Shown here: one piece after another, positions 1-19,015 of the stretch
Numbering within the stretch: the stretch's first letter is position 1
Layout of the letters: each line of letters opens with the position of its first letter
Source: Bacilli bacterium
GTDB taxonomy: Bacteria; Bacillota_I; Bacilli_A; RFN20; CAG-826
Reading direction: 5' to 3'
NCBI GenBank assembly: GCA_017447165.1
Contig: JAFSOD010000004.1
Coordinates: forward strand, 564,478-628,477
DNA length: 64,000 nt
Translations under genes and position numbers: made by a program
The notes under the pieces: generated by a model
What the model was told of the DNA's origin: nothing
Seen by the model: the letters and a program-made list of their open reading frames with translations, nothing else
Databases searched by the model: none

Positions 1-762
1 ATTGATAAAAATATTAATGTAGGCCTAATTGCTAATCCACAAGTTGGTTCATTTGGACATAAAGAAAACAAATATTTAAAAGACTGCGTAGAACTATTGC
101 TTAACGATGTAACACCTTTTTTTATCGTCGGTAATGATTTTTCTGAGTGGGTCGATGTTATTAAAAGACCAATAGAAGAATGTGGTTTTGTTTTCAAAAA
201 GAGAGACTATATCGATGACTATTTAAAGTTGTCTAATAATCAAGATAATCATTTATATGCACTGATACCAGATGAAGGATCTTATAGAAGAGTGATACAC
301 AAAAATCGCATTATTCTTAGTGATCACTTTGAAGTTAAACAAAGGAATTCTGATTATTCAGACGATTCCGAAGTTTTTTCTGAAGACCACCTATACTATG
401 AAGAAGATGGATATGTCGGTTTTTCGGATTATTCTATAATCGGCAATCGATATAACGAAGGAGGATTTCTTCCTTATTGTGTTGTTATTCACATAACATA
501 CTTCGATGATAAAAAAAGGCTAATGATAAAGCATTTTAAGTCTGATTCAATTGATGATACAAGTGATACCGCCAATAAATTTTATGAGGCTGTAACTAAG
601 TTTGTTGAATGGAACAAAAACAAAATTGTTGACACTTATGCCTCAAGAGAATTAGAAAGATTGCACGCGTATGGTCTATACCCAGGCTTAGGCACTATAA
701 AAAAATTAAGCTTAATGAATCACATTGAACTAATATGCAACTATTTAAATAATGAGAATTAG
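1..762 (+). CDS. hypothetical protein, 5'-truncated at the window edge; first gene of a three-gene overlapping operon
   Basis: The reading frame is open from nt 1 (IDKNINVGLIANPQVGSFGHKENKYLKDCVELLLNDV...) through the ATG listed at 97 to the stop at 762. Its last 11 nt overlap the start of the RES gene (ATGAGAATTAG). No domain recognised by eye. Confidence 0.5.
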   Translation: MDKNINVGLIANPQVGSFGHKENKYLKDCVELLLNDVTPFFIVGNDFSEWVDVIKRPIEECGFVFKKRDYIDDYLKLSNNQDNHLYALIPDEGSYRRVIHKNRIILSDHFEVKQRNSDYSDDSEVFSEDHLYYEEDGYVGFSDYSIIGNRYNEGGFLPYCVVIHITYFDDKKRLMIKHFKSDSIDDTSDTANKFYEAVTKFVEWNKNKIVDTYASRELERLHAYGLYPGLGTIKKLSLMNHIELICNYLNNEN

Positions 763-1846
763 TAGTGCTTGCTTTTTAGATAACGAAATCAAATTAATTA
801 TTGAATCAAATAAACGCTCTGGTTTTTGTGATGTGTTAAAGCGAAACGAAACATTTATTTATGACACTAATCAAGATAACGGACTTGGAGATTTATTTTT
901 AGATTTTTTAAGTATTTATAAAGTGGCGACGGATGAAACATCTACTGAACTAAGAGTTTTATTGAGAGATGAGCTTTGCGACAAGTGGAATATTTTTTCC
1001 AAAGACTATAAAGAAACTGCTATTGATATAGTTAAAGCAATTGTAATTGATTGCAATTCTTATGATGATGAATTGTTTGACCTTGATATCTTTTCTAAAG
1101 AGGTATATATACCTCAGTTATCTAATAAAGTTTATTACAAAGAAAATAGTATTTTAAATGGTTTTAGTTGGGATGATTTTTGCAATAGCATCAAATTTTC
1201 AAACAGATATCATACAAAGCTTTTTAACAGTGAAGTATTTAAAATTTTCTCTTATAACCTAAACACTCGTTTTTTGACTGGAACATATTTTTATAGGGCC
1301 AGAATTAATAAGACAAATAAGCGCTTTAAGAAAAATGAGATTGGGATGCCGCCGCCGGCTCATTCTAAATCAGGGAGAATTGCTGCTGATTTTATACCTT
1401 GCCTTTATTTGGCTAATGATATTGAAACTGCTATTTGCGAAGTTCGAGCAGGCGCTCATGATATTGTTGATGTTGGTCTTTTTGTTAACACTGCTGAACT
1501 ATCAATTGTTGATTTTAGGCTTTTGGATAAAATCAGTCCATTTGCTGTAGAGGATCCGTTATCTCTCTATATAAACAAACCAATTTTTATCAGCATGAAA
1601 AAAGAAATGGAAAAGCCACTTAGATCATCTGAAAATATTGTTGATTATATTCCAATACAATATTTATGCGACTACATTAGATTTCTTGGTTTTGATGGAG
1701 TGGCTTACAACAGCACGATGAATGAAAATGGTTTTAATGTTTCTGCTTTTTCTGATTCAAAATTTAGCTGTAAAAACATTGAAACGTACAAGATTAAAAA
1801 AATAGATTATTTGTATAAAAAAACAGAGCATAAAAATGAAAATTGA
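752..1846 (+). CDS. RES-domain protein (C-terminal RES NAD+-glycohydrolase-like toxin domain with a ~200 aa N-terminal extension)
   Basis: The C-terminal part reads FYRARINK...GMPPPAHSKSGRIAADFIPCLYLANDIETAICEVRAG. This matches the RES signature: Arg in YRAR, the GRxN/GRxA motif, LY(L)A, and E in the ETAxxE motif. Start and stop overlap the neighbouring genes by 11 nt each. Confidence 0.65.
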   Translation: MRISSACFLDNEIKLIIESNKRSGFCDVLKRNETFIYDTNQDNGLGDLFLDFLSIYKVATDETSTELRVLLRDELCDKWNIFSKDYKETAIDIVKAIVIDCNSYDDELFDLDIFSKEVYIPQLSNKVYYKENSILNGFSWDDFCNSIKFSNRYHTKLFNSEVFKIFSYNLNTRFLTGTYFYRARINKTNKRFKKNEIGMPPPAHSKSGRIAADFIPCLYLANDIETAICEVRAGAHDIVDVGLFVNTAELSIVDFRLLDKISPFAVEDPLSLYINKPIFISMKKEMEKPLRSSENIVDYIPIQYLCDYIRFLGFDGVAYNSTMNENGFNVSAFSDSKFSCKNIETYKIKKIDYLYKKTEHKNEN

Positions 1847-4112
1847 ATATAAAGAACTAATAAAAACTTCAAGCTGCAAAAGAAAATATCAATATATTGA
1901 ATATTTTTTTAAGAACATAGTTGGAACAAACCAAAAACCATTCATTGGAAAAGATGAGAACGATATTAAAAATCCGTTTGATATCGCCATCGTTAGAAAT
2001 TTTCAAGAAAAGAAAAGTCGATTTGGAAACAAGTATATTGACCGTAACTGGAGAACATGTATTTTTTACTACATTGACAAAAAGGATGCGTTTGAATATT
2101 TAAACGACAGCAACAAAGACAACTACAAATTTACAAGAGATGACGCAATAATTTCTTGGGATTCTACAAATGGTTTTCCAAGTAGTAAAATAAATAGTAC
2201 GAATTTAGATACAATTAATTATCACGTGTTTAGATATTTTAAAACAGCCAGATCATCATGGTTTGTTAGGTCTTTTGTTTATTTTGTGTTAGTTATTTGC
2301 GACGACAATAGCGAAATTAGTTCTAAGGATTTTTATATTCATTATTGGAACAGCAATTATAAATTTAAGAAATCCGCTAAAAAACCATTATTTGGAAAAA
2401 ATAATTCGCTAGCGTTTGTTGAGAATGTTTCTGAAGAATTAAGTTTGATAAAAAACGAAAATAAAGACTCTCTGGATTGCGTTAAAGCATATTATGGCGA
2501 GTTAGACTTCTTTCCAGAAAGTGAAGAAGCATATATTGATATTAAGAATGATATTGATAGTGGAATAGAATTTATCTTATGTCAGGGTGCAGCAAGAACA
2601 GGGAAAACAATTTTAGCAATGAGATTCCTTCATGAATATCCGGAATATAAACTGCTTTTGATGAATTATAATTTTTATTTATCATTAAAAGATGCTTTTG
2701 GTGTTTTAAATGTTACATTCCCTTCAAATAGAATATTTCATCATAACTTAAAGCACAAAAATGGTTGTTGGATTTCTGGATCAATTAATAAAATATATAG
2801 AATTAGTCTTTCTAATTTAATTGTTGATGAGGCGCAAAGACTTGGAGTGGTTGATGAAAGAGAATGCAGATATGGAACTCTTTCTAAGTTGGATGAAATT
2901 GATGATATCGTTAATTGCGATAATCATGTTTGTACTTTGTTTTTTGGTGATGATTCTCAGATGTTGAACCCAAGATATGACCAAGGCTTTTCGGCGATAA
3001 AAACTGTTTTAGGAGATAAAAATTATCGAGAATACTATTTCGCTTCTCCCTTAGGTGTTCCACCTGAAATAATAAAAAATGTTCGTTTTTTGTTGGGGTA
3101 TGAAAATACTTCGCCTCATCCAATTAATCAGTTTTCAATTTTAATTGAAAAAGATGCAAATAAATTCGTCGATACATACCTAAATGACCAACAAACAAAG
3201 AGACATCTTGTTGTTCCTGTTATCGACAACGAATTATCAAATGGCACATTAATTGGAGAGCATTTCTTTGATAATATCAAAAACAAAGAAGAGCCTATTT
3301 ATCTTTTTGACAGCGAAATACAAAAAGAATACTTTTTAACTGCCTACTCTGTAATTTCTAGAGAGATTGAATCAGTATATCTGTTTTTGCCAAAGAACAT
3401 ATATTTGAGTGATGACAACCAAATATCTATTGTTGGATATTCAAATAATAGGTTTTTAATTAATCACTTGTACACAATAATGACAAGAACAACAATGAAT
3501 CTTTATATTTGCTGTGAAGATGAAGCGTTAGGAACTTCACTAAGCGAAAAAATCGATGCCATAAAAAGCGAAATCGAAAAAGACGAAGACGAAGATGAAC
3601 AGCAACAAAACGATTATGACTATGATGTTTTCTTATCGTATTTTGGCACTGAACGAAAAGATGGAACGTATGCTAGCGCAAGACGAATTTGTGATTTATT
3701 GACTAGCATAGGGTTGAAAGTGTTCTTGTACAATTATTCCTGTACTAGAGAAGATATAGACATGGAATTTAGCGAAACTTGGCACGCAATTTCAAGAAGT
3801 AAAACATTACTTTTTGTTTTTAATGAGTTTGTTGAAAAAGATAGTTCTGGGTTAATTAAAAGAAAAACAGCCAACGGAGAGACAAGTAGGATTTATCAAG
3901 AACTAATGCTTTTTACTGAACTTATAACACTTGGCGATAGAAAAGCTAAGACAGATGCGAAATTTTATTATGTTGGAACGCAACTCAATAAATTCACAAT
4001 ATATCCATTTCTAAATCGATATATTCCGTTACTAACCCAGGGCAACTCTAACTGTTGCTTTATGAATGATGAAGAATTACTTCGCTGGATTAACGGAAGA
4101 TTTTCTGACTGA
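1836..4112 (+). CDS. three-part protein: unknown N-terminal domain, a DUF2075/Schlafen-like P-loop ATPase, and a C-terminal TIR domain
   Basis: Walker A is CQGAARTGKTILA and Walker B/DEAQ box is LIVDEAQRL. After an acidic linker (EDEDEQQQNDYDY) comes the classic TIR beta-A motif DVFLSYFGTERKD...ARRICDLLTSIGLKVFLY...SKTLLFVFNEFVEK...ELMLF. Confidence 0.6.
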   Translation: MKIEYKELIKTSSCKRKYQYIEYFFKNIVGTNQKPFIGKDENDIKNPFDIAIVRNFQEKKSRFGNKYIDRNWRTCIFYYIDKKDAFEYLNDSNKDNYKFTRDDAIISWDSTNGFPSSKINSTNLDTINYHVFRYFKTARSSWFVRSFVYFVLVICDDNSEISSKDFYIHYWNSNYKFKKSAKKPLFGKNNSLAFVENVSEELSLIKNENKDSLDCVKAYYGELDFFPESEEAYIDIKNDIDSGIEFILCQGAARTGKTILAMRFLHEYPEYKLLLMNYNFYLSLKDAFGVLNVTFPSNRIFHHNLKHKNGCWISGSINKIYRISLSNLIVDEAQRLGVVDERECRYGTLSKLDEIDDIVNCDNHVCTLFFGDDSQMLNPRYDQGFSAIKTVLGDKNYREYYFASPLGVPPEIIKNVRFLLGYENTSPHPINQFSILIEKDANKFVDTYLNDQQTKRHLVVPVIDNELSNGTLIGEHFFDNIKNKEEPIYLFDSEIQKEYFLTAYSVISREIESVYLFLPKNIYLSDDNQISIVGYSNNRFLINHLYTIMTRTTMNLYICCEDEALGTSLSEKIDAIKSEIEKDEDEDEQQQNDYDYDVFLSYFGTERKDGTYASARRICDLLTSIGLKVFLYNYSCTREDIDMEFSETWHAISRSKTLLFVFNEFVEKDSSGLIKRKTANGETSRIYQELMLFTELITLGDRKAKTDAKFYYVGTQLNKFTIYPFLNRYIPLLTQGNSNCCFMNDEELLRWINGRFSD

Positions 4113-4466
4113 TTTTTTTGTTGTGTAAATAATCTATGCCACTAATGATGATATGGAGCATTAGCAAATCTTATTAGAAAAAAGATTTAGAGTTTCTAGA
4201 TGGATATTTTTGTCTTTAGCTATCATCTTTAATGGTTTTATAATTGCGTATTCATGTTTTTCTAAAGATACCGCTAATAAATTAAACAACTGGATTACAG
4301 ATCTATTTTCAAGATTTATTAATAATATTACTGAAAAAGAAATGAAAGTTATCTCTATAACTGAAATATCAGCATCGTTTTAAATTAATAAATATAAGCA
4401 ACTGCGAGATAAATGACGTGCTTATTTGATAATTATGCTAATTTAATTTAATATATTTATGCTTAT

Positions 4467-5216
4467 ATGAATATTATGGTTAGTATTATAACCCCTGCAT
4501 ATAATTGCAAAGATACGATCAAAGAAACATATGACAGTATTCTTTCTCAAACTTTTTCTAATTGGGAATGGATAGTTGTGGAAGATCATTCTAAAGATGA
4601 TTCTTTTGAATATATTAAAGAAATTGTTAAAGATGATTCTAAAGTAGTCTTGCTAAGAACAAATAAAAATAGTGGTGCTGCAACAGCTAGAAATGTCGGT
4701 ATCAAAGCCGCGAAAGGGAAATATATTGCGTTTTTAGATGCTGATGATATGTGGTCGCCAGATAAATTAGAAAAACAAATCGCATTTATGGAATTAAATA
4801 ATTGTTTTATTTCTTATAGTGATTACGATGTTTTATACCCAAACGGAGAGATAAAGCATTATAAACCAAAGGCTAAGTCTATTGGTTATAAGCAAATTTT
4901 ATATAAAGTTGATATTGGTTGCTTGACAGGCATGTATAATGCTGAAGCTCTTGGAAAAGTCTATATGCCATTAGACTGTGAAAAAAGAGAAGATCATGGT
5001 TTTTGGCTTGATTTAACTAGAAATGGGACTGTTGCATATAAAATATCAGAAACACTAGCAACTTATAGAATTGGCAATCAAGGTGTATCTTCTAATAAAA
5101 GAAAAATGATTAAATACCAATATCGTTTATATAGAAAGCACGAACATTTTAATGTAATTAAATCCTGGTGGTATCTATTCCGTCGCATAGCAAACAAAGT
5201 ATTTCATAAATATTAA
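4467..5216 (+). CDS. family 2 glycosyltransferase (GT-A fold)
   Basis: VSIITPAYNCKDTIKETYDSILSQTFSNWEWIVVEDHSKDDS...ATARNVGIKAAKGKYIAFLDADDMW. This is the typical GT2 N-terminus with DxD (DAD). Confidence 0.8.
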   Translation: MNIMVSIITPAYNCKDTIKETYDSILSQTFSNWEWIVVEDHSKDDSFEYIKEIVKDDSKVVLLRTNKNSGAATARNVGIKAAKGKYIAFLDADDMWSPDKLEKQIAFMELNNCFISYSDYDVLYPNGEIKHYKPKAKSIGYKQILYKVDIGCLTGMYNAEALGKVYMPLDCEKREDHGFWLDLTRNGTVAYKISETLATYRIGNQGVSSNKRKMIKYQYRLYRKHEHFNVIKSWWYLFRRIANKVFHKY

Positions 5217-5234
5217 TAAAAAGGATGCATCAAC

Positions 5235-6314
5235 ATGAAAGTTTTAGAAGTAATTAGTAATTTATATCCAACAGGAGGAGGAGAAACATTCGCAGTTAAT
5301 TTGTCACGCGAATTATCTTCGATGTGTGAACTTAAAGTTGTTGTTTTATATAGCAAATACAAACAATATTTTATTGATCGTTTAAAAGAGAAAGGCATTG
5401 AACCAATAGTGTTAAATAAACAAAAACATTTTGATTTAAAAAACGCTAAAGAATTAAGAAAGATTATTAACGATTTTAAGCCTGATGTGATTCACACTGA
5501 AAATAACGCATTAATTCCTACCTATTTAGCTTTAAGAAAAACTAAATACAAGAAAACAATTAATGTGTTCCACACTATGCATTTAGAGCCTAAAGATGAG
5601 TGTCCAAAAAAGATATTGTATATGCTTTTTAAGCATATTTTAAGAAAAAAGAACTACGTTCCAGTGGCGATCACCAAGCAATTATCTGCAATCTCATCAT
5701 CTTATTATAAAGTTGAAAATGTCCCGTTCATTAATAATGGCTCAGACTTAGAACCGTTTGTTAATAAGATTGAACTAAATAAGCGTAATTACGACATTGT
5801 TGTTGTTGGCCGTTTTTCCGAGCAAAAAAATCACAAATTCTTGATACCAGCTTTTGCAGAACTTAAGAAGTTAGTTCCATCTTTAAAAGTTGCTCTTGTT
5901 GGTGGTGGAGAATTATTTGATGAAATTAAAGAATTAGCTAAGCAACATAACGTTTTAGACTTTGTTGATTTTAAAGGGCTTATGAATAGTCCTGCTGAAG
6001 TAGTCAATGATTCTAAAATCATTTTACTCGGATCTTTATTTGAGGCTAATCCGTTATCTCTACTTGAAGGGATGTCTTCTGGGTGTATTGTTGTTTCCAC
6101 TAATGTTGGTGGGGTTTCTGATATTATCAAAGAAGGAGAAAATGGATTCTTGTTTGAAGTTAATGATCAAAACAAGTTTTTATCAATTACATCAAATATT
6201 TTAAATAACATTAATAGTTATCGAAATATGTCTAAACATAACACTGAATATTCAAAGAATTTCTCAATGAATAAGTGTGCAAAAGACTACATTGAACTTT
6301 TTAATAGATATTAA
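5235..6314 (+). CDS. family 4 glycosyltransferase (GT-B fold, group 1)
   Basis: The C-terminal region EANPLSLLEGMSSGCIVVSTNVGGVSDIIKEGENGFLF matches the GT4 E-x7-E nucleotide-sugar motif region. Confidence 0.8.
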   Translation: MKVLEVISNLYPTGGGETFAVNLSRELSSMCELKVVVLYSKYKQYFIDRLKEKGIEPIVLNKQKHFDLKNAKELRKIINDFKPDVIHTENNALIPTYLALRKTKYKKTINVFHTMHLEPKDECPKKILYMLFKHILRKKNYVPVAITKQLSAISSSYYKVENVPFINNGSDLEPFVNKIELNKRNYDIVVVGRFSEQKNHKFLIPAFAELKKLVPSLKVALVGGGELFDEIKELAKQHNVLDFVDFKGLMNSPAEVVNDSKIILLGSLFEANPLSLLEGMSSGCIVVSTNVGGVSDIIKEGENGFLFEVNDQNKFLSITSNILNNINSYRNMSKHNTEYSKNFSMNKCAKDYIELFNRY

Positions 6315-6369
6315 TAAACATAACGTTTTGTTGATTTATCTTTGTGTACGCGTGTAGAATAATATATCT

Positions 6370-7701
6370 ATGAAACGTATCAAGGATTTTTATGCTAAAC
6401 ATAAAACAGGTTCATTAATGGGCTTTGTGCTTTTGTTCTCTTGCTTAGGAATCTTGTTTTCTTATTTATACGGCATTTCCAATTCTGATGTTAATAGATA
6501 CGCAAACTTAATGGTTCTTGATTATGAAGCCAAACAACAAAACATCAATTTTATTCATGGCTATGTAGAATTGGATTCATCCTTAGACGGAAAGGAACAA
6601 TATAACAAGAATATCAATTTACAATATAAAACAATTTTTAAGCAGAGACTTTATAATTCTTATTTATTATCAAGCTCGTCAGCAGAAATCCTCCAATATG
6701 ATTCCACAATCTATAGATATTCTACCAAAACCCCTATTTCTTCTTTGGGGGAATATCAACTAGCAAGAGTGAGAAACTACTGGGATTATAAATATATGGA
6801 ATCAATCGGACTCCCGCTTTTTTATATAAATGAAAACGCTTCAAAAAATAATATCGGATCAAAAAAGCAAGGTATTAATTATGGCTGCTACATTTCGTCT
6901 ACGCAAGCATTCAACATCGCTGTTGAACTGGGATTATTAGATAAGCAAGAGTCCGATCTTAATGTTATAAGAGAAGCATTTAATAAAATTATTGCGCCAG
7001 ATAATGATTATTATTTACATTTAAAAAAATCCGGCCGCGAACCAATTTTTACAATAAACAATATTTATATAAACTCAGAAAGATTTGTTTCTTTATTAAG
7101 CAAAGAACAACTCGCCGATTTGCATAGGACATACGGAGACTACTATAAGTCTTTTGCATATTGGAACAAAAATACAATATTTACTAATTGTGATGGAAAC
7201 AATGTTTTTTCTAGCGGTTCCTTATTGTGTTTTGATATCAGAGGAAGTTATAACAATATCTATTTGTTTATGAATGAAGTAATTGGTAAAAACTATGTTA
7301 ATGAAGGTTCCACTGTTCATTTTCAGTCACAAAATAAATCCTTGGATTCATTATCAAAAAATATTAATGATGCATATGCAAACACCAAAAAAGGTAATTT
7401 GGTGTTTTTGCTTGCCTCAATTTTGTTTTTTGAGTTATTGATGTATTTCCAAATAACATTGATTTCTACTAAAAGTCCAACTAGGAAAAATTATTTTTTA
7501 AAAGCGTTTATGCCTTCAATTCCATTTGCTTTATTGTGGCTCATAATATCGGTGATGCTGATGAGTTCCTCAACATTTGCGTTCTCATACACCATGTTTA
7601 ATTATATTGGTAATGGTGTATCGCTTGTATTTTTGACTGTTGTTATCCTTTCTGGTGTTTTATGGAAGAAATTTGGAGAAGATGATGAAAAGATTATTTA
7701 A
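6370..7701 (+). CDS. membrane protein: one N-terminal TM, a ~340 aa extracytoplasmic region and C-terminal TMs; possibly a chain-length determinant-like protein
   Basis: Hydrophobic N-terminus (LMGFVLLFSCLGILFSYLYG) and a C-terminal TM cluster (LVFLLASILFFELLMYF...ALLWLIISVMLM...SLVFLTVVILSGVLW). The topology resembles Wzz/CpsC, but no sequence motif was recognised. Confidence 0.4.
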   Translation: MKRIKDFYAKHKTGSLMGFVLLFSCLGILFSYLYGISNSDVNRYANLMVLDYEAKQQNINFIHGYVELDSSLDGKEQYNKNINLQYKTIFKQRLYNSYLLSSSSAEILQYDSTIYRYSTKTPISSLGEYQLARVRNYWDYKYMESIGLPLFYINENASKNNIGSKKQGINYGCYISSTQAFNIAVELGLLDKQESDLNVIREAFNKIIAPDNDYYLHLKKSGREPIFTINNIYINSERFVSLLSKEQLADLHRTYGDYYKSFAYWNKNTIFTNCDGNNVFSSGSLLCFDIRGSYNNIYLFMNEVIGKNYVNEGSTVHFQSQNKSLDSLSKNINDAYANTKKGNLVFLLASILFFELLMYFQITLISTKSPTRKNYFLKAFMPSIPFALLWLIISVMLMSSSTFAFSYTMFNYIGNGVSLVFLTVVILSGVLWKKFGEDDEKII

Positions 7702-9925
7702 AACATATTTTTCCAATTTTGAAACGTCACTTAAGTCAATAATCTTTTTAATTATTCCTTTTGCTACATTCTTTTCTGTTATGTCTGATAGGACACCTTA
7801 TAACTATATAAACATCATGGTTTATGGCGTTCTCTCAATACTCATTATTTTTTATGTAGCAAGGTATAAAACATTTAAGTTCGATATATTTACATCACTA
7901 ATAATTACATTTAACTTAATTATCTTTGTTTCTCAATTGCTAAATAAAAGAGTTTCTGAGTTCCCTAGAACGATTATTTTGCTTTCGCTATTTTCTATAG
8001 TGATATATCAATTCTTTATTAATGTTGAAAACAAAAACGCTGTATTCAAAGCAATTTTGATTGGTGGTGTTATTTTCGCGTTGTACTTTATTTACACATA
8101 TAGAAAAGAAATAATTCATTTTGATTTTTCTGGTAGAATAGGCGATAAATTTTCAGATCAAAATGATTTATCAAAATATTTGTCTGTATTTGGCTTGATT
8201 TCTTTAATATCCTTTGTGTCTGCAAAAAAATGGATGAAGGTTTTATATGTTTTTTCGGCTGCTATGTTTGTTGGCATCATTTTATTGACAGGGTCAATAT
8301 CCAATATTTTATGTTTTATAATATGTAGTTTGATTTTGCTTATTGTTAACACTAAAAGGCAAAATAGATGGATTACTATTTTAATTATCGTTTCTATTAT
8401 TTTGCTCTTAATTATAACTGTTCAACTGCCTGGTATGGAATACTTCAAAAAAAGGATTGAAGAAATATTTAATGCGCTTTCTAAAGCAGATGGAAAAAAA
8501 GATGGTTCTGCGGCCGATAGAGCAGCACTCTTTTCTGAAGGTTTGCGTTTATTTCTAACAAGACCATTGTTTGGTTTTGGCTATGACCAGGTTCAGCATT
8601 TCACACATGGGGTTGGTTTGTTCTCACATAATAATTTTATTGAATTAGGAGCATCTTTTGGTGTTCTTGATCTTTTGGCATATGAAACACTATTATTAAT
8701 GCCACTCATAAAAATGTTTAAACATAAGAGAATTAATCTAAATCTATTAATACTTGTAATATATTTATTCATTTTCCAATTTTTCTTAGTTATTTTTAGA
8801 AAGAAAATTGAATTCATATTAATGCCACTATTTTTCTCTATTTCTTGTTTCGGTTATTATTCATATTATGAAGTTGGAATTAAAGATAGAAAACTATTTG
8901 CAAGATATGTTAAGTCAACAAGAGAATTTGAAGAAAAAGTTATAGAAGAAGATAGAAAAATTAGAGTTTTAAACTTATATAGTGTTGATGAATTTTCAAG
9001 TGGTTATTCAAAAGAACTAGAATCACTACTGTGTGAGCAAGTTAATTTAAGAAGCATTGGTGTTAAGTTTGATCTAACAGATTGCGATAATGCAACTGAT
9101 GACTTGTTTATCGTTAATAAAAAAATCTTTAAATATCGTAAGTTATCATTTGAAATAGATAAATACAAGCCGGATGTTGTTTATGTTGATAGTAACTTGC
9201 TGAATTTTGGGTTTGCCTCATGTATTGGGTTTTCAAAAAAGGTTGTTTGCTATATCAGGAATGATTTTGATTATGAAAAGCTTTATAAGCGTAAAAGCAT
9301 TCAATATGTTGCATTTAATTTAGATGCAGAGAATCGATTTAAAACATCAAACAAAAAGAATAAATACCATATTACTTCTATTTTAGATATGGATATAAAA
9401 AACGATGTTACACCACAAAAATATTCTTCATGCTTTGTTGGTGGAAAACATTTACATAGCTACTATAAGGATGCGGTTGCTATTTTTGAAAAAGCACATG
9501 AAATTAATGCAGAATTAAGATTTTCGATATATTGCGATCCTTATGCTTTTTCCCGCTTGGACGAACACTTTAAGAAAAATAATGTCGACTACATAGATTT
9601 AATAAGCGAGCACTCTGACGTTTTGAACATTATTAAGAATTCAAATAGCGTGCTGTTGCTTGATGATAGCAAAATTGATTATGCGTCTCTGGAGTTATTG
9701 AAAGAATGCAATAAATTTATAATATGTTATTCGACTAACGAAAACGAAATACTATTTAATAATTCGGAACCAATACTAATTAAACACGATATTAAAGAAG
9801 TGTCTGATTTAATTGTTGAAATTTCATCTTCTGATAAAAAGGCTGAAAATGTAGCCAACTATAATGAACAAATAGTTAAAAAGTTTATACAATATCAGTA
9901 TGTTTGTTTGTTTATGTTAAAATAA
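7682..9925 (+). CDS. O-antigen polymerase/ligase family (Wzy-like) polytopic membrane protein with a ~350 aa C-terminal soluble extension
   Basis: More than 10 predicted TM segments and a Wzy_C-like motif (FSHNNFIELGASFGVLDLLAYETLLL). A GGAGA RBS sits 6 nt before the ATG at 7682, which is preferred over the track start at 7640. Confidence 0.55.
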   Translation: MMKRLFKTYFSNFETSLKSIIFLIIPFATFFSVMSDRTPYNYINIMVYGVLSILIIFYVARYKTFKFDIFTSLIITFNLIIFVSQLLNKRVSEFPRTIILLSLFSIVIYQFFINVENKNAVFKAILIGGVIFALYFIYTYRKEIIHFDFSGRIGDKFSDQNDLSKYLSVFGLISLISFVSAKKWMKVLYVFSAAMFVGIILLTGSISNILCFIICSLILLIVNTKRQNRWITILIIVSIILLLIITVQLPGMEYFKKRIEEIFNALSKADGKKDGSAADRAALFSEGLRLFLTRPLFGFGYDQVQHFTHGVGLFSHNNFIELGASFGVLDLLAYETLLLMPLIKMFKHKRINLNLLILVIYLFIFQFFLVIFRKKIEFILMPLFFSISCFGYYSYYEVGIKDRKLFARYVKSTREFEEKVIEEDRKIRVLNLYSVDEFSSGYSKELESLLCEQVNLRSIGVKFDLTDCDNATDDLFIVNKKIFKYRKLSFEIDKYKPDVVYVDSNLLNFGFASCIGFSKKVVCYIRNDFDYEKLYKRKSIQYVAFNLDAENRFKTSNKKNKYHITSILDMDIKNDVTPQKYSSCFVGGKHLHSYYKDAVAIFEKAHEINAELRFSIYCDPYAFSRLDEHFKKNNVDYIDLISEHSDVLNIIKNSNSVLLLDDSKIDYASLELLKECNKFIICYSTNENEILFNNSEPILIKHDIKEVSDLIVEISSSDKKAENVANYNEQIVKKFIQYQYVCLFMLK

Positions 9926-17473: not shown

Positions 17474-19015
17474 ATGGAAAACAATATTAATACTACTGGA
17501 AACAATACTTCTTCATCATTACTAAGAAAAAATATAGTCCTAAACACTATTTTTCGTGTTTTGATGATAATTGCACCTTTTATTACCGCACCTTATGTTT
17601 CTAGGGTTCTTTTAAGTGATGGCGTTGGTATTTATAGTTATACACAAAGTCTTGTTACATATTTTACGATGTTTGCGGCGTTAGGAACTATTTCGTATGG
17701 CACAAGAGAAATTGCTAGAAAAAGAGATAATAGGAGTGATTATTCTAAAACATTCTGGGAAATTGAACTAATATCTATTATTTGTTCTGCTATTGCTTTA
17801 CTTGCGTGGATAATTTTATCAATCAGTTATTTAGAATATCGAACATTTTTGCTTATTTTTTCTTTTAGTATTTTAGCGACTTGTTTTGACATTAGCTGGC
17901 TTTATGCTGGTTTAGAGAAATATAAATATACTGTTGGTGTTAATTTATTATTTAAAATTATCAGTGTCGTACTTATTTTCGTTCTTGTTAAAAAACCAGA
18001 TGATGTTTGGCTGTATATTTTAATTTATTCAGCATCTTTATTTTTAGGGAATGCTTCTATGTGGCTTTTCTTACCAAAAATATTGGTTAAGACCAAAATT
18101 AACAAGCATAGCTTAAAGCATCATTTTAAAGAAACACTTATATATTTTATTCCTGCGGTTGCAACATCTTTATACACAGTTTTGGATAAAACGTTAATTG
18201 GTTCGTTAATTCCCGGTACAACTACAGTTATTGTTGATGGTAAAGAAGTGGTAAAGAAGACCTCAGAAGTTGAAAGCGGCTATTATGAGCAAGCCACAAA
18301 GATTATCGATATTGTTAAAGCTGTTGCATTCGTTAGTATACATAGCGTTATGTCTTCTAGATCTAGTTACTTGTATAAAATTGATGATAAAAAACAGATT
18401 AAAGAATTAATGATTAATACTTTTGACCTTACCTTATTTTTATCAATAGGTGCGGCTTTTGGCTTAATAGGTGTCGCACCATATTTTGTTCCGGTGTTTT
18501 TCGGGGCAGGATATGATAAAACTGTTTTAATTTTGCAGATTTTAGCTTGCCTTGTTCCAATTATTTGTATCAGTGGTGCATTAGGTTCTGTTTATTACAC
18601 TCCGGTTGGAAAAAGGAAGCAATCATCTTTATTTTTGATTATTGGGGCGGTTATTAATTTAGGGCTAAGTGCACCATTGATTATTTATTTCCAATCTGTT
18701 GGTGCTGCGATTGCCTCTGTTATTGCAGAAACAGTAATTGTGGTTTTGTATTTTGCTTTTTGTAAGAAAGCAATAACACTCAAGGAATTTTTGACAGTCA
18801 TTTGGAAAAAGCTTATTGCTGGCGGCTTAATGTTAGGTTCAATATTTCTTTTCATTAATTTTGTAAGCATTCCTAATAAATATCTATTTTTCTTTGTAAT
18901 TTTCGTTCTCGGGTTCTCAATTTACATTTTAGCTCTATTAGCGCTTAGAGATAGATCCATGCAAAAATTTATCTCACTAGTTTTTAAAAGGAGAAAAAAA
19001 GATTATGAGCAGTAA
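17474..19015 (+). CDS. wzx: oligosaccharide/polysaccharide flippase (Wzx, MOP superfamily)
   Basis: 12-TM protein with the typical Wzx N-terminus NIVLNTIFRVLMIIAPFITAPYVSRVLLSDGVGIYSYTQSLVTYF. Confidence 0.8.
   Translation: MENNINTTGNNTSSSLLRKNIVLNTIFRVLMIIAPFITAPYVSRVLLSDGVGIYSYTQSLVTYFTMFAALGTISYGTREIARKRDNRSDYSKTFWEIELISIICSAIALLAWIILSISYLEYRTFLLIFSFSILATCFDISWLYAGLEKYKYTVGVNLLFKIISVVLIFVLVKKPDDVWLYILIYSASLFLGNASMWLFLPKILVKTKINKHSLKHHFKETLIYFIPAVATSLYTVLDKTLIGSLIPGTTTVIVDGKEVVKKTSEVESGYYEQATKIIDIVKAVAFVSIHSVMSSRSSYLYKIDDKKQIKELMINTFDLTLFLSIGAAFGLIGVAPYFVPVFFGAGYDKTVLILQILACLVPIICISGALGSVYYTPVGKRKQSSLFLIIGAVINLGLSAPLIIYFQSVGAAIASVIAETVIVVLYFAFCKKAITLKEFLTVIWKKLIAGGLMLGSIFLFINFVSIPNKYLFFFVIFVLGFSIYILALLALRDRSMQKFISLVFKRRKKDYEQ

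What the first reader, a model, noticed from the sequence alone, without database searches (positions are those of the whole stretch)
1..4112. Tightly overlapped three-gene operon: unknown protein, RES-domain protein, and a P-loop (DUF2075-like) ATPase fused to a TIR domain. Candidate NAD+-targeting defence system
Three consecutive genes have 11-nt stop/start overlaps (ATGAGAATTAG at 752; ATGAAAATTGA at 1836), which implies obligate co-translation. Gene 2 ends in a clear RES domain (YRAR...SGRIAADFIPCLYLANDIETAICEV). Gene 3 combines an unrecognised N-terminal domain, a Walker A (GAARTGKT) / DEAQ-box ATPase, and a C-terminal TIR domain (DVFLSYFG...). RES and TIR are both NAD+-consuming effector folds. 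Their co-occurrence with a DUF2075/Schlafen-like ATPase in one overlapped operon is not an architecture I can map onto any named system (Thoeris, Avs, Xre-RES TA and others). The locus directly abuts a variable polysaccharide locus, a typical defence-island position. The first gene is cut by the window edge.
Basis: partly seen in the sequence, partly recalled or inferred. Interest (0 to 1): 0.85.

Follow-up and report, generated by a model that had tools for sequence, protein, structure and literature searches.

The report
Two defence modules fused in one operon
The three overlapping genes are real, but they are the tail of a four-gene operon that joins two separately mobile candidate anti-phage modules: a widespread, uncharacterised relative of the phage P4 gop-beta-cII system that carries a RES NAD+-degrading toxin, and a rare stand-alone helicase-like ATPase with a TIR-like end.

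Summary
The ORFs, both 11-nt overlaps, the RES domain and the Walker A/DEAQ DUF2075 ATPase are all confirmed. Pfam does not recognise the gene 3 C-terminus. However, a confident AlphaFold model (pLDDT 91) hits TIR domains first, 13 of 22 homologues give weak TIR_2 matches, and one Glu is invariant.

The interpretation needs revising in three ways.
- The "unknown" gene 1 is an sce7725-family protein. A fourth gene lies just upstream of the window and overlaps gene 1. It is an sce7726-family protein, the family of phage P4 cII.
- The order sce7726 → sce7725 → RES recurs in 15 of 26 distinct loci on plasmids, viral contigs and MAGs from several phyla. None of the others has gene 3.
- Gene 3's closest homologues (75%, 72%, 59% identity) stand alone in other defence islands. 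Relatives carry DarT in place of the TIR-like end.

So RES plus TIR is a lineage-specific juxtaposition of two modules, not a conserved architecture. I read the triad as a toxin-antitoxin-like abortive-infection system related to gop-beta-cII, with RES replacing Gop. I read gene 3 as a single-protein sensor-effector. Neither is in PADLOC v2 apart from the cII model. Verdict: new variant of a known kind, moderate interest.

The parts
1..762 (+). Gene 1, cut at its 5' end (253 of 302 codons in the window). It is an sce7725-family protein and a probable distant relative of phage P4 Beta. I propose it as the antitoxin/regulator partner of the RES toxin.
   Evidence: NCBIfam sce7725_fam 3.9e-68 for the fragment and 4e-94 for the full length. 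Pfam Beta_protein matches weakly at the N-terminus (E 0.024), and 9 of 15 family members match it weakly. hhalign against the Beta family gives E 1e-4 and probability 49-59% over 279 columns. The AF2 model has pLDDT 81 with alternating beta/alpha elements and only weak TIM-barrel hits.
752..762 (+). 11-nt overlap between the gene 1 stop and the gene 2 start (ATGAGAATTAG).
   Evidence: The equivalent junction also overlaps in related triads: 14 nt in L063 and 11 nt in L071.
752..1846 (+). Gene 2, 364 aa: a degenerate N-terminal zinc ribbon, a HEPN/RES-NTD1-like region and a RES domain. It is the predicted NAD+-degrading toxin/effector of the triad.
   Evidence: Pfam RES 1e-12 and HEPN_RES_NTD1 0.048. 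Thirty-eight homologues were found, and sources name them 'RES family NAD+ phosphorylase'. The 31-sequence alignment has invariant R152, R182, R184, R209, Y219, E230, R232, Y299, S321 and N329. The CxxC...CxxC motif present in most members is reduced to C7 and C26 here.
1343..1759 (+). RES domain proper (gene 2 residues 198-336).
   Evidence: Envelope of the Pfam PF08808 match.
1836..1846 (+). 11-nt overlap between the gene 2 stop and the gene 3 start (ATGAAAATTGA). This is the junction between the two modules and is seen only in this lineage.
   Evidence: The start at 1836 is supported by the conserved N-terminus M-x-I-x-Y-K-E-L-I-K in homologues. In the closest triads, RES is followed by unrelated genes.
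1836..2549 (+). Gene 3 N-terminal domain (residues 1-238), of unknown fold. It is a rare domain found essentially only in front of DUF2075 ATPases. I propose it as a sensor or substrate-binding module.
   Evidence: No Pfam, NCBIfam or PADLOC match. A profile search against PDB sequences found nothing. The profile finds only 52 cluster representatives among 1.84 billion. Nearly all of those scanned carry DUF2075.
2550..3602 (+). Gene 3 P-loop SF1-helicase-like ATPase (DUF2075 / Schlafen group 3 helicase) followed by an acidic linker.
   Evidence: Pfam SLFN-g3_helicase 1.1e-08, residues 247-447. Invariant Walker A G251/K257/T258, invariant D331-E-A-Q-R335, and conserved GDDxQ and MTR motifs.
3603..4112 (+). 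Gene 3 C-terminal TIR-like domain (residues 590-758, plus the stop codon). It is the predicted NAD+-cleaving or signal-producing effector.
   Evidence: The AF2 model has pLDDT 91.1 and pTM 0.88. The Foldseek PDB top 12 hits are all TIR domains (RPS4, RUN1, L7, TIR-1, TIR-STING, SARM1) at E 2e-4 to 3e-3, probability ~1.0, TM 0.38-0.57. Pfam TIR_2 matches 13 of 22 homologues, best E 1e-3, but not this sequence. Glu689 in 'YQEL' at the start of helix C is invariant. In relatives this position is occupied by DarT.

Best explanation
The window shows the last three genes of a four-gene operon formed by joining two independent candidate anti-phage modules.

Module A is a conserved triad. It starts with an sce7726 / P4-cII-family protein that carries a PD-(D/E)xK signature; this gene lies just upstream of the window. 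It continues with gene 1 (sce7725 family, probably a distant Beta homologue) and gene 2 (RES). I propose that Module A works like P4 gop-beta-cII, a toxin-antitoxin-like abortive-infection system. The RES protein is the toxin, and it degrades NAD+ by phosphorolysis. The sce7725/sce7726 pair holds it inactive until a phage factor releases it.

Module B is gene 3, a self-contained sensor-effector. Its N-terminal domain and SF1-helicase-like ATPase would recognise a phage nucleic-acid or replication cue. The C-terminal TIR-like domain is the output, either NAD+ depletion or a signal.

Shown: the domain identities, the conservation of the triad without gene 3, the autonomy of gene 3, and the swap of its C-terminal effector. 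Inferred: the toxin/antitoxin roles, the trigger, NADase activity, and anti-phage function.
For: The operon has four genes. L001 shows a 294-aa gene overlapping gene 1. It matches NCBIfam sce7726_fam at 6e-46, the PADLOC 'cll' model at 7e-16 and P4 cII by phmmer at 1e-10. RefSeq itself labels P4 cII an 'sce7726 family protein'.

gop-beta-cII is a validated defence system. It protects against lambda and P1, and gop is toxic without beta (PMC9122126). A phage gene triggers it (bioRxiv 10.1101/2023.04.06.535777).

The triad is conserved. The order sce7726 → sce7725 → RES occurs in 15 of 26 de-duplicated sce7725 loci. Examples:
- Moraxella, Shinella and Rhizobium plasmids;
- many IMG/VR viral contigs;
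- the closest MAG relatives, L063 and L071.
Only the window lineage has gene 3.

The third-gene slot varies, which fits an effector position: GNAT in an E. faecium plasmid and AAA_21 in L055.

P4-type Beta genes on plasmids are always paired with an sce7726 gene. This parallels the sce7725/sce7726 pairing.

RES catalytic-type residues are invariant. The NAD+ phosphorylase activity of RES toxins is established (PMC6436930, title; PMC9503650).

Gene 3 is autonomous. Homologues at 75%, 72% and 59% identity sit in other islands without the triad, and one follows a gene on the opposite strand.

The C-terminus is a swappable effector. DarT replaces it in L009, with a NADAR-DarT1 gene next door, and in at least six cluster representatives.

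TIR-like fold.
Against: - No experiment exists for any of these proteins.
- The sce7725-to-Beta link is weak: hhalign probability is only 49-59%, and the Pfam match is below threshold.
- Gene order differs from P4, where gop → beta runs convergent with cII. There is no Gop homologue; Gop is a small membrane protein.
- RES and sce7725 have no PADLOC model, so the triad is not demonstrated to be defensive.
- The 11-nt gene 2/gene 3 overlap, with no promoter- or terminator-like site standing out between them, means gene 3 is probably co-expressed with the triad here. A second gene 3 homologue (L008) also lies next to a cII gene and a convergent Beta-like gene. Functional coupling therefore cannot be excluded.
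- The TIR assignment rests on moderate TM-scores (0.38-0.57) and sub-threshold HMM hits.
- The sce7726 protein could itself be a nuclease effector rather than a regulator.
Confidence: 0.6

Rival explanations
1. All four genes form one integrated system. The cII-like/Beta-like pair is a sensor-regulator chassis that controls two NAD+-directed effectors, RES and the helicase-TIR protein. In other words, gene 3 has been recruited into the triad rather than merely parked beside it.
For: There is an 11-nt overlap and no obvious internal promoter or terminator. The arrangement is identical in 24 contigs from several samples. A distant gene 3 homologue (P0029, 35% identity) is also followed by a cII gene with a convergent Beta-like gene. 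The third-gene slot of sce7726/sce7725 pairs is demonstrably variable.
Against: Fourteen other distinct triads lack gene 3, and 8 of 9 other gene 3 contexts lack any cII or sce7725 gene. The 24 contigs all carry the identical protein, so they represent one lineage. Overlapping genes are routine in this genome. sce7725 is a very large family (at least 3980 clusters), so chance adjacency in defence islands is plausible.
Confidence: 0.2
2. Module A is an ordinary addiction (toxin-antitoxin) cassette that stabilises plasmids, prophages and genomic islands. It has no role in phage defence. Gene 3 is an unrelated neighbour.
For: The triad is found mainly on plasmids and viral/prophage contigs. RES toxins are classic type II TA toxins (PMC6436930). 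No PADLOC model exists for RES or sce7725.
Against: The only characterised system that contains a cII-family gene is anti-phage. In MAG relatives the triad sits among Thoeris-like, Fic, AAA_15/AAA_21 and HNH genes, in the same polysaccharide-flanking hotspots. A three-gene design that includes a PD-(D/E)xK protein is more than a minimal TA pair.
Confidence: 0.12
3. The gene 3 C-terminus is a TIR-shaped but catalytically inactive domain used for oligomerisation or partner binding. The real activity of gene 3 would then be nucleic-acid directed, through the helicase and perhaps the N-terminal domain, as in Nhi-type proteins.
For: No Pfam TIR hit for this sequence. TM-scores are only 0.38-0.57. 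Nhi and Nhi-like defence proteins pair DUF2075 with a nuclease (bioRxiv 10.1101/2022.05.11.491447).
Against: An invariant Glu lies at the start of helix C, where TIR NADases have their catalytic Glu (the register was judged by inspection). The equivalent position in relatives holds DarT, a bona fide NAD+-using toxin with its own NADAR partner, which argues that this slot is the effector. No nuclease motif or PADLOC Nhi match was found in the N-terminal domain.
Confidence: 0.15

Closest known systems
Phage P4 gop-beta-cII anti-phage system (Rousset et al. 2022; DefenseFinder/PADLOC 'gop_beta_cll')
   Same: The upstream gene is a clear cII / sce7726-family homologue. Gene 1 shares with Beta the N-terminal Y-x-P-x-L-R-x-x-x-x-E motif, a weak full-length profile match and obligatory pairing with an sce7726 gene. 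Both are three-gene cassettes with a toxic third component, and both are carried on mobile elements and defence hotspots.
   Different: There is no Gop. Gop is a 133-aa membrane protein, and here a 364-aa RES enzyme takes its place. The gene order is tandem cII-like → Beta-like → toxin, rather than gop → beta convergent with cII. sce7725 is a sister family to Beta, not the Pfam/NCBIfam Beta family itself. The PADLOC beta and gop models do not match.
RES-Xre type II toxin-antitoxin systems (MbcTA, ParST, PrsTA)
   Same: A RES-domain toxin with the conserved Arg/Tyr/Glu/Ser-type residues. The expected chemistry is NAD+ phosphorolysis or depletion.
   Different: There is no Xre/MbcA/ParS (DUF2384) antitoxin. 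The RES protein is about twice as long, with a zinc ribbon (degenerate here) and a HEPN/RES-NTD1-like N-terminal region. The partners are sce7725 and sce7726.
Nhi / Nhi-like single-gene defence proteins (N-terminal nuclease + DUF2075 helicase)
   Same: An N-terminal accessory domain followed by a DUF2075 SF1-type ATPase in one polypeptide. Homologues stand alone in defence islands.
   Different: There is no sequence match to any PADLOC model. The N-terminal domain shows no recognisable nuclease motif. There is an extra C-terminal effector domain, TIR-like or DarT, that Nhi lacks.
TIR-effector defence proteins (Thoeris ThsB, TIR-STING, SPARTA TIR-APAZ, SARM1/plant TIR NADases)
   Same: The predicted fold of the gene 3 C-terminus retrieves these first. 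It has a 'DVF(I/L)SY' first strand and an invariant Glu in helix C.
   Different: Very divergent: it is below Pfam thresholds and has a roughly 20-residue insert between strand C and helix C. It is fused to a DUF2075 helicase rather than to SLOG, STING, Argonaute or STAND partners. There is no ThsA.
DarTG toxin-antitoxin/defence systems
   Same: Close architectural relatives of gene 3 carry DarT in place of the TIR-like domain and have a NADAR-DarT1 gene next door. This shows that the C-terminal slot holds an NAD+-using toxin.
   Different: The window protein has no DarT and no NADAR or macrodomain partner.

Membership tests
P4 gop-beta-cII system | cII (sce7726-family) protein present | tested here: met
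   L001:7160-8044, just upstream of the window: NCBIfam sce7726_fam 6e-46, PADLOC cll 7e-16, phmmer to P4 cII 1e-10. The D...ExK signature is shared with P4 cII.
P4 gop-beta-cII system | Beta-family protein (Pfam PF14350) present | tested here: inconclusive
   Pfam Beta_protein matches only residues 2-38 at E 0.024, 14.5 bits against a cut-off of 27. Nine of 15 relatives hit weakly. hhalign gives E 1e-4 and probability 49-59%. No PADLOC beta hit.
P4 gop-beta-cII system | Gop toxin present | tested here: not met
   phmmer with P4 Gop finds nothing in the locus. Gop is a small protein with hydrophobic N-terminal segments. A RES protein occupies the toxin slot.
P4 gop-beta-cII system | Arrangement gop → beta, convergent with cII | tested here: not met
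   Here the arrangement is tandem sce7726 → sce7725 → RES. The P4-type convergent arrangement is seen in L006 and L065-L068.
P4 gop-beta-cII system | Protects against phage; toxin neutralised by a partner | not testable with these tools
   Needs cloning, phage challenge and toxicity assays.
sce7726-sce7725-RES triad (unnamed recurrent cassette) | Three tandem, tightly spaced genes in that order, with a full-length RES protein of the gene 2 subfamily | tested here: met
   The window lineage plus 14 other distinct loci. RES-family HMM E-values for intact copies run from 5e-79 to 3e-127 (annotated examples).
RES-Xre type II TA | RES domain above the Pfam threshold with conserved catalytic-type residues | tested here: met
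   48.8 bits against 23.2. Invariant R184, R209, Y219, E230, S321 and others.
RES-Xre type II TA | Xre/MbcA/ParS (DUF2384) antitoxin encoded immediately upstream | tested here: not met
   The upstream genes are sce7725 and sce7726. They give no HTH or DUF2384 hit.
TIR domain superfamily | Match to a Pfam TIR-clan model at the curated threshold | tested here: not met
   No hit for the window sequence at E<=10. TIR_2 matches 13 of 22 homologues, but the best E is only 1e-3.
TIR domain superfamily | TIR (flavodoxin-like) fold | tested here: met
   Model pLDDT 91. The top 12 Foldseek PDB hits are TIR domains with probability ~1.0, E 2e-4 to 3e-3, TM 0.38-0.57.
TIR domain superfamily | Catalytic Glu in helix C (NADase-competent TIRs) | tested here: inconclusive
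   Glu689 is invariant and lies at the start of the predicted helix C. I judged the equivalence to SARM1 E642 by inspection only.
DUF2075 / Schlafen group 3 helicase | Pfam PF09848 above threshold, with Walker A and DExx box | tested here: met
   35.2 bits against 24. Invariant GxxRxGKT and DEAQR.
Nhi / Nhi-like | N-terminal nuclease domain in front of DUF2075; match to Nhi models | tested here: not met
   No PADLOC hit at E<=1. The N-terminal domain has no Pfam or PDB-sequence match and no clear nuclease motif.
Thoeris | ThsA (SIR2 or Macro/SLOG) together with ThsB TIR | tested here: not met
   No ThsA-type gene in the operon and no PADLOC hit.
Avs / STAND NTPase defence | STAND-type NTPase core | tested here: not met
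   The ATPase is SF1-helicase-like DUF2075, and there is no PADLOC hit.

The most novel reading that the evidence does not exclude
The sce7726 (cII-like, PD-(D/E)xK) and sce7725/Beta-like pair may be a general phage-sensing chassis. It would be wired to interchangeable toxic outputs: Gop in P4, RES in most triads, and GNAT or AAA_21 elsewhere. In this lineage it would have captured a second output, so one sensor pair controls two different NAD+-directed effectors, a RES phosphorylase and a helicase-TIR protein. The second cII/Beta-type pair, found next to a distant gene 3 homologue (L008), would then reflect a real functional affinity rather than chance.
Probability: 0.2. Interest if true: 0.75.

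Novelty: new variant of a known kind. Interest (0 to 1): 0.5.

Why it matters
The mechanism of gop-beta-cII is unknown, and only the P4 form is catalogued. This locus shows that cII-family genes and a Beta-like partner form a widespread cassette. The sce7725 family alone has at least 3980 clusters at 90% identity. The cassette's third gene is most often a long RES NAD+ phosphorylase, whose chemistry is known and easy to assay. That gives a tractable route to three questions: what the cII/Beta-type pair senses, how it restrains a toxin, and whether RES toxins act in phage defence outside Xre-RES pairs.

Separately, gene 3 defines a very rare family of N-terminal domain plus DUF2075 helicase, with only 52 cluster representatives among 1.84 billion. 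The family swaps TIR-like and DarT ends, which makes it a candidate single-protein immune sensor.

The RES-plus-TIR pairing that first attracted attention is, on present evidence, an accident of island assembly in one gut or rumen Bacilli lineage.

Tried and rejected
- PADLOC v2 scans of genes 1-3 at E<=1 gave nothing. Only the upstream gene hit a model, 'cll'.
- Profile searches against PDB sequences gave no significant match for the TIR-like domain, the gene 3 N-terminal domain, sce7725, sce7726 or the RES family. The best sce7726 hit (4ic1, E 0.92) aligns exactly on the D...ExK motif. I recall that entry as a Cas4 nuclease, but the tool lists it only as 'uncharacterized protein'.
- Fold searches with the sce7725 model did not retrieve P4 Beta from BFVD. 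The top hit was an unnamed Gordonia phage protein at E 2e-6. From the PDB they gave only weak TIM-barrel-type hits, E >= 0.01. The Beta link therefore rests on hhalign and shared gene context.
- hhalign of the TIR-like profile against three bona fide small TIR proteins from neighbouring loci was uninformative.
The neighbourhood statistics therefore come from plasmids, IMG/VR and individual look-ups, not from an unbiased survey.
- tblastn of gene 3 against 72,556 plasmids found no match.
- I considered a reassigned genetic code (TGA read as Trp) because of the Mycoplasmatota relatives and rejected it. Trp is encoded by TGG throughout, and TGA occurs only as the terminal codon of genes 2 and 3.
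- Literature searches for sce7725, sce7726, PF14350, 'RES domain' with gop, and DUF2075 with TIR found no description of the triad or of a DUF2075-TIR protein.

Full report
**1. What is in the sequence**

Three + strand ORFs occupy window 1-4112.
- Gene 1 is open from base 1 and ends at 762.
- Gene 2 is 752-1846 (364 aa).
- Gene 3 is 1836-4112 (758 aa).

The region is 30.6% G+C against 32.6% for the whole window. Trp is encoded by TGG, and TGA occurs only as a stop, so the standard bacterial code applies.

Overlaps are not special here. Fifteen of 43 adjacent same-strand ORF pairs in the window overlap. Eight overlap by 8-20 nt, including another 11-nt case at 19005/19015. The overlaps show compact operon organisation and probably translational coupling. 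They do not show a particular functional dependence.

**2. Domain checks**

- Gene 2 matches Pfam RES above threshold (E 1e-12, residues 198-336). It also gives a weak HEPN/RES-NTD1 match.
- Gene 3 matches DUF2075/SLFN-g3_helicase above threshold. Walker A and DEAQR are invariant across 27 homologues.
- No Pfam TIR-clan model matches gene 3.

I modelled gene 3 residues 590-758 with a 22-sequence alignment. The model is confident (pLDDT 91.1, pTM 0.88). The top twelve Foldseek hits in the PDB are all TIR domains: RPS4, RUN1, L7, TIR-1, TIR-STING and SARM1. Their probability is about 1.0, E is 2e-4 to 3e-3, and TM-scores are moderate at 0.38-0.57. Thirteen of 22 homologues give weak TIR_2 hits, best E 1e-3. 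Glu689, in 'YQEL' at the start of the predicted helix C, is invariant.

I conclude that this is a divergent TIR-like domain and is probably catalytic.

**3. The operon is longer than the window**

Exact-sequence look-up of gene 3 found 24 contigs, the longest in the index being 722 kb. All carry the same arrangement. On L001, a 294-aa gene (L001:7160-8044) overlaps the true start of gene 1 (L001:8019). This upstream gene has three lines of evidence:
- NCBIfam sce7726_fam, 6e-46;
- the PADLOC model 'cll' of the gop_beta_cll system, 7e-16;
- phmmer to P4 cII, 1e-10.

RefSeq itself annotates P4 cII as an 'sce7726 family protein'.

Gene 1 is an sce7725-family protein, 4e-94 for the full length. 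So the 'unknown protein' has a family name, and the locus is connected to phage P4's gop-beta-cII. [quoted passage not shown] It is triggered by a phage accessory gene (bioRxiv 10.1101/2023.04.06.535777).

**4. The conserved unit is sce7726 → sce7725 → RES**

tblastn of sce7725 against plasmids found annotated triads in three places: Moraxella osloensis pYHS1, Shinella plasmids and Rhizobium phaseoli pRphaN261b. In each, the order is 'sce7726 family protein', then 'sce7725 family protein', then 'RES family NAD+ phosphorylase'. Unrelated genes follow.

A scan of IMG/VR gave 33 viral-contig loci. After de-duplication at 90% identity there are 26 distinct sce7725 loci:
- 15 have the full triad, one of them degraded;
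- 8 have sce7726 → sce7725 with a different gene or nothing recognisable downstream;
- 2 have the reversed order, in one case beside an S24/HTH repressor;
- 1 (an E. faecium plasmid) has sce7725 followed by a GNAT acetyltransferase.

One pair is followed by an AAA_21 ATPase.

The RES proteins in these triads belong to the gene 2 subfamily over their full length. HMM E-values for the intact copies run from 5e-79 to 3e-127.

The two closest MAG relatives also have the triad with overlapping genes and no gene 3:
- L063 (RES 58% identical) is followed by a Thoeris-like cluster and a Fic gene.
- L071 (sce7725 60% identical) is embedded in sugar-nucleotide genes.

Only the window lineage has gene 3 after RES.

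**5. Gene 3 is autonomous**

Its family is tiny: 33 clusters among 5.8 billion sequences. The closest homologues have different neighbours.
- P0002 (75% identity) is preceded, after a 450-nt gap, by an unknown 665-aa gene. AAA_21 and AbiEii genes follow.
- P0003 (72%) follows a gene on the opposite strand.
- P0011 (59%) overlaps a 209-aa gene in an Abi_2-containing island.
- The Mycoplasmatota homologue follows a small ThsB-type TIR gene.

None of these has sce7725, sce7726 or RES nearby. The one partial exception is P0029 (35%). It is followed by a cII-family gene and a convergent Beta-like gene.

A profile of the N-terminal domain finds only 52 cluster representatives among 1.84 billion. Nearly all of those scanned carry DUF2075. 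At least nine of the representatives end in DarT, and some have TPR or LRR N-terminal extensions. One DarT form has a NADAR-DarT1 gene next door.

The family is therefore a chassis of N-terminal domain plus DUF2075, with an exchangeable C-terminal NAD+-using effector. This is the pattern expected of single-protein immune sensors. The N-terminal domain itself stays unassigned.

**6. What the partners look like**

sce7726/cII. An alignment of 17 members, including P4 cII, has these positions invariant or nearly so: E87, D96, N101-G102, E108, K110, D114, R118 and Q122. The pattern E...D...E-x-K is the PD-(D/E)xK nuclease signature. This is read directly from the sequence. The only external support is a non-significant PDB match on exactly that motif.

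sce7725. The AF2 model (pLDDT 81) has alternating strands and helices. It gives only weak TIM-barrel-type hits. Its relation to P4 Beta rests on four observations:
- a shared N-terminal motif;
- weak Pfam Beta_protein hits in 9 of 15 members;
- an hhalign match over 279 columns at E 1e-4 with probability 49-59%;
- the fact that Beta genes on plasmids are always paired with an sce7726 gene.

I treat the homology as probable, not proven.

Gop. It is a 133-aa protein with hydrophobic N-terminal segments and is unrelated to RES.

RES subfamily. It normally starts with a CxxC...CxxC zinc ribbon. That motif is degenerate in the window protein and its two closest relatives.

**7. Most likely mechanism**

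Module A is the triad. I propose it is a toxin-antitoxin-like abortive-infection cassette of the gop-beta-cII type, in which RES replaces Gop as the lethal output. RES toxins degrade NAD+ by phosphorolysis (PMC6436930; PMC9503650). The sce7725/sce7726 pair would restrain RES and respond to a phage trigger.

Module B is gene 3. It would sense a nucleic-acid cue through its N-terminal and helicase domains and fire the TIR-like domain.

Both modules would then converge on NAD+, but by accident of assembly rather than by design. The roles, the trigger and the activities are inferred. The domain identities, the conservation patterns and the modular independence are shown.

**8. Rivals**

- An integrated four-gene system (about 0.2). 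It is kept alive by the gene 2/gene 3 overlap and by the L008 adjacency.
- A pure addiction module with no role in defence (about 0.12).
- A non-catalytic TIR-like domain (about 0.15).

**9. Comparison and novelty**

The locus is not a member of gop-beta-cII, because Gop and the P4 gene arrangement are absent and Beta membership is inconclusive. It is also not a member of RES-Xre (no Xre antitoxin), Thoeris (no ThsA), Avs (no STAND core) or Nhi (no model match and no recognisable nuclease).

It is best described as a new variant of known kinds. One part is a cII/Beta-type cassette with a RES effector. The other is a DUF2075 helicase fused to a TIR-like effector. I found no paper describing either. 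PADLOC v2 has no models for RES, sce7725 or gene 3.

The specific RES-plus-TIR operon that prompted the finding is lineage-specific. Interest is moderate. The more general result, a widespread uncharacterised triad, is worth testing.

Noticed in passing
L063:7636-11005: Directly downstream of the closest related triad lies a Thoeris-like cluster: ThsB_TIR (189 aa), ThsA_Macro (300 aa) and a weak TIR_2 protein (223 aa). A Fic-domain gene follows. This shows that the same polysaccharide-flanking hotspot holds different defence cargo in related genomes.
   Followed up: no
L009:7001-9954, and proteins P0196, P0198, P0199, P0203, P0205: Relatives of gene 3 end in a DarT ssDNA ADP-ribosyltransferase domain instead of the TIR-like domain. 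One has a NADAR-DarT1 gene immediately downstream. Three are about 1500-1600 aa, and one of these (P0199) shows a weak TPR match in its N-terminal extension. A helicase-coupled DarT appears not to be described.
   Followed up: partly
P0219 (1879 aa), P0230 (1672 aa): These are long proteins. BspA-type LRR/TPR repeats (P0219) or a DUF6273-containing region (P0230) precede the N-terminal-domain plus DUF2075 core. They may be sensor-extended versions of the family.
   Followed up: no
L008:7001-11362: A distant gene 3 homologue (P0029, 35% identity) is followed, after 357 nt, by a cII-family gene. That gene overlaps a convergent 347-aa Beta-like gene, which starts MYYIPIIKLKSRE and contains FGFADYCGF. 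This is a P4-style Beta/cII pair next to the helicase-TIR protein.
   Followed up: partly
L007:6396-6905: In Mycoplasmatota bacterium zrk2, the gene 3 homologue is preceded by a 169-aa ThsB_TIR/TIR_2 protein. There, two TIR-type domains are adjacent.
   Followed up: no
L034, L036, L037, L038 (about 5100-7800): In a group of viral contigs the pair is in reverse order (sce7725 → sce7726) with no RES gene. In L034 and L037 a 244-aa ORF lies just upstream; the L034 copy was scanned and is an HTH + Peptidase_S24 (CI-like) repressor. In L038 the upstream gene is an HSDR_N / PD-(D/E)xK protein.
   Followed up: partly
L023:5306-7513 (E. faecium plasmid p114-2): Here sce7725 is flanked by an unannotated 229-aa protein that has a D...E-L-K motif and by a GNAT acetyltransferase. 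This may be a GNAT-toxin variant of the cassette on a clinical VRE plasmid.
   Followed up: partly
window 752-850 (gene 2 residues 1-33): The CxxC...CxxC zinc ribbon that opens most RES proteins of this subfamily is reduced to two cysteines (C7, C26) in the window protein and its two closest relatives (P0035, P0036).
   Followed up: partly
window 4113-4466: A 354-nt gap separates gene 3 from the first glycosyltransferase gene. It contains a 57-codon TTG-initiated ORF (4210-4383) with a hydrophobic N-terminus. The gene calls on the public contigs do not include it. No terminator-like site was found after gene 3.
   Followed up: no
window 4467-39903: There is a very long run of same-strand genes. 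Those from 4467 to about 13300 were annotated through the L001 contig and are polysaccharide-type: glycosyltransferases, a Wzy_C polymerase-like ORF at 7640-9925, and dTDP-sugar enzymes. The remaining ORFs of the run were not annotated. Polysaccharide and surface-protein genes also lie upstream of the operon on L001. The defence genes therefore sit inside, not merely beside, a surface-polysaccharide region.
   Followed up: no
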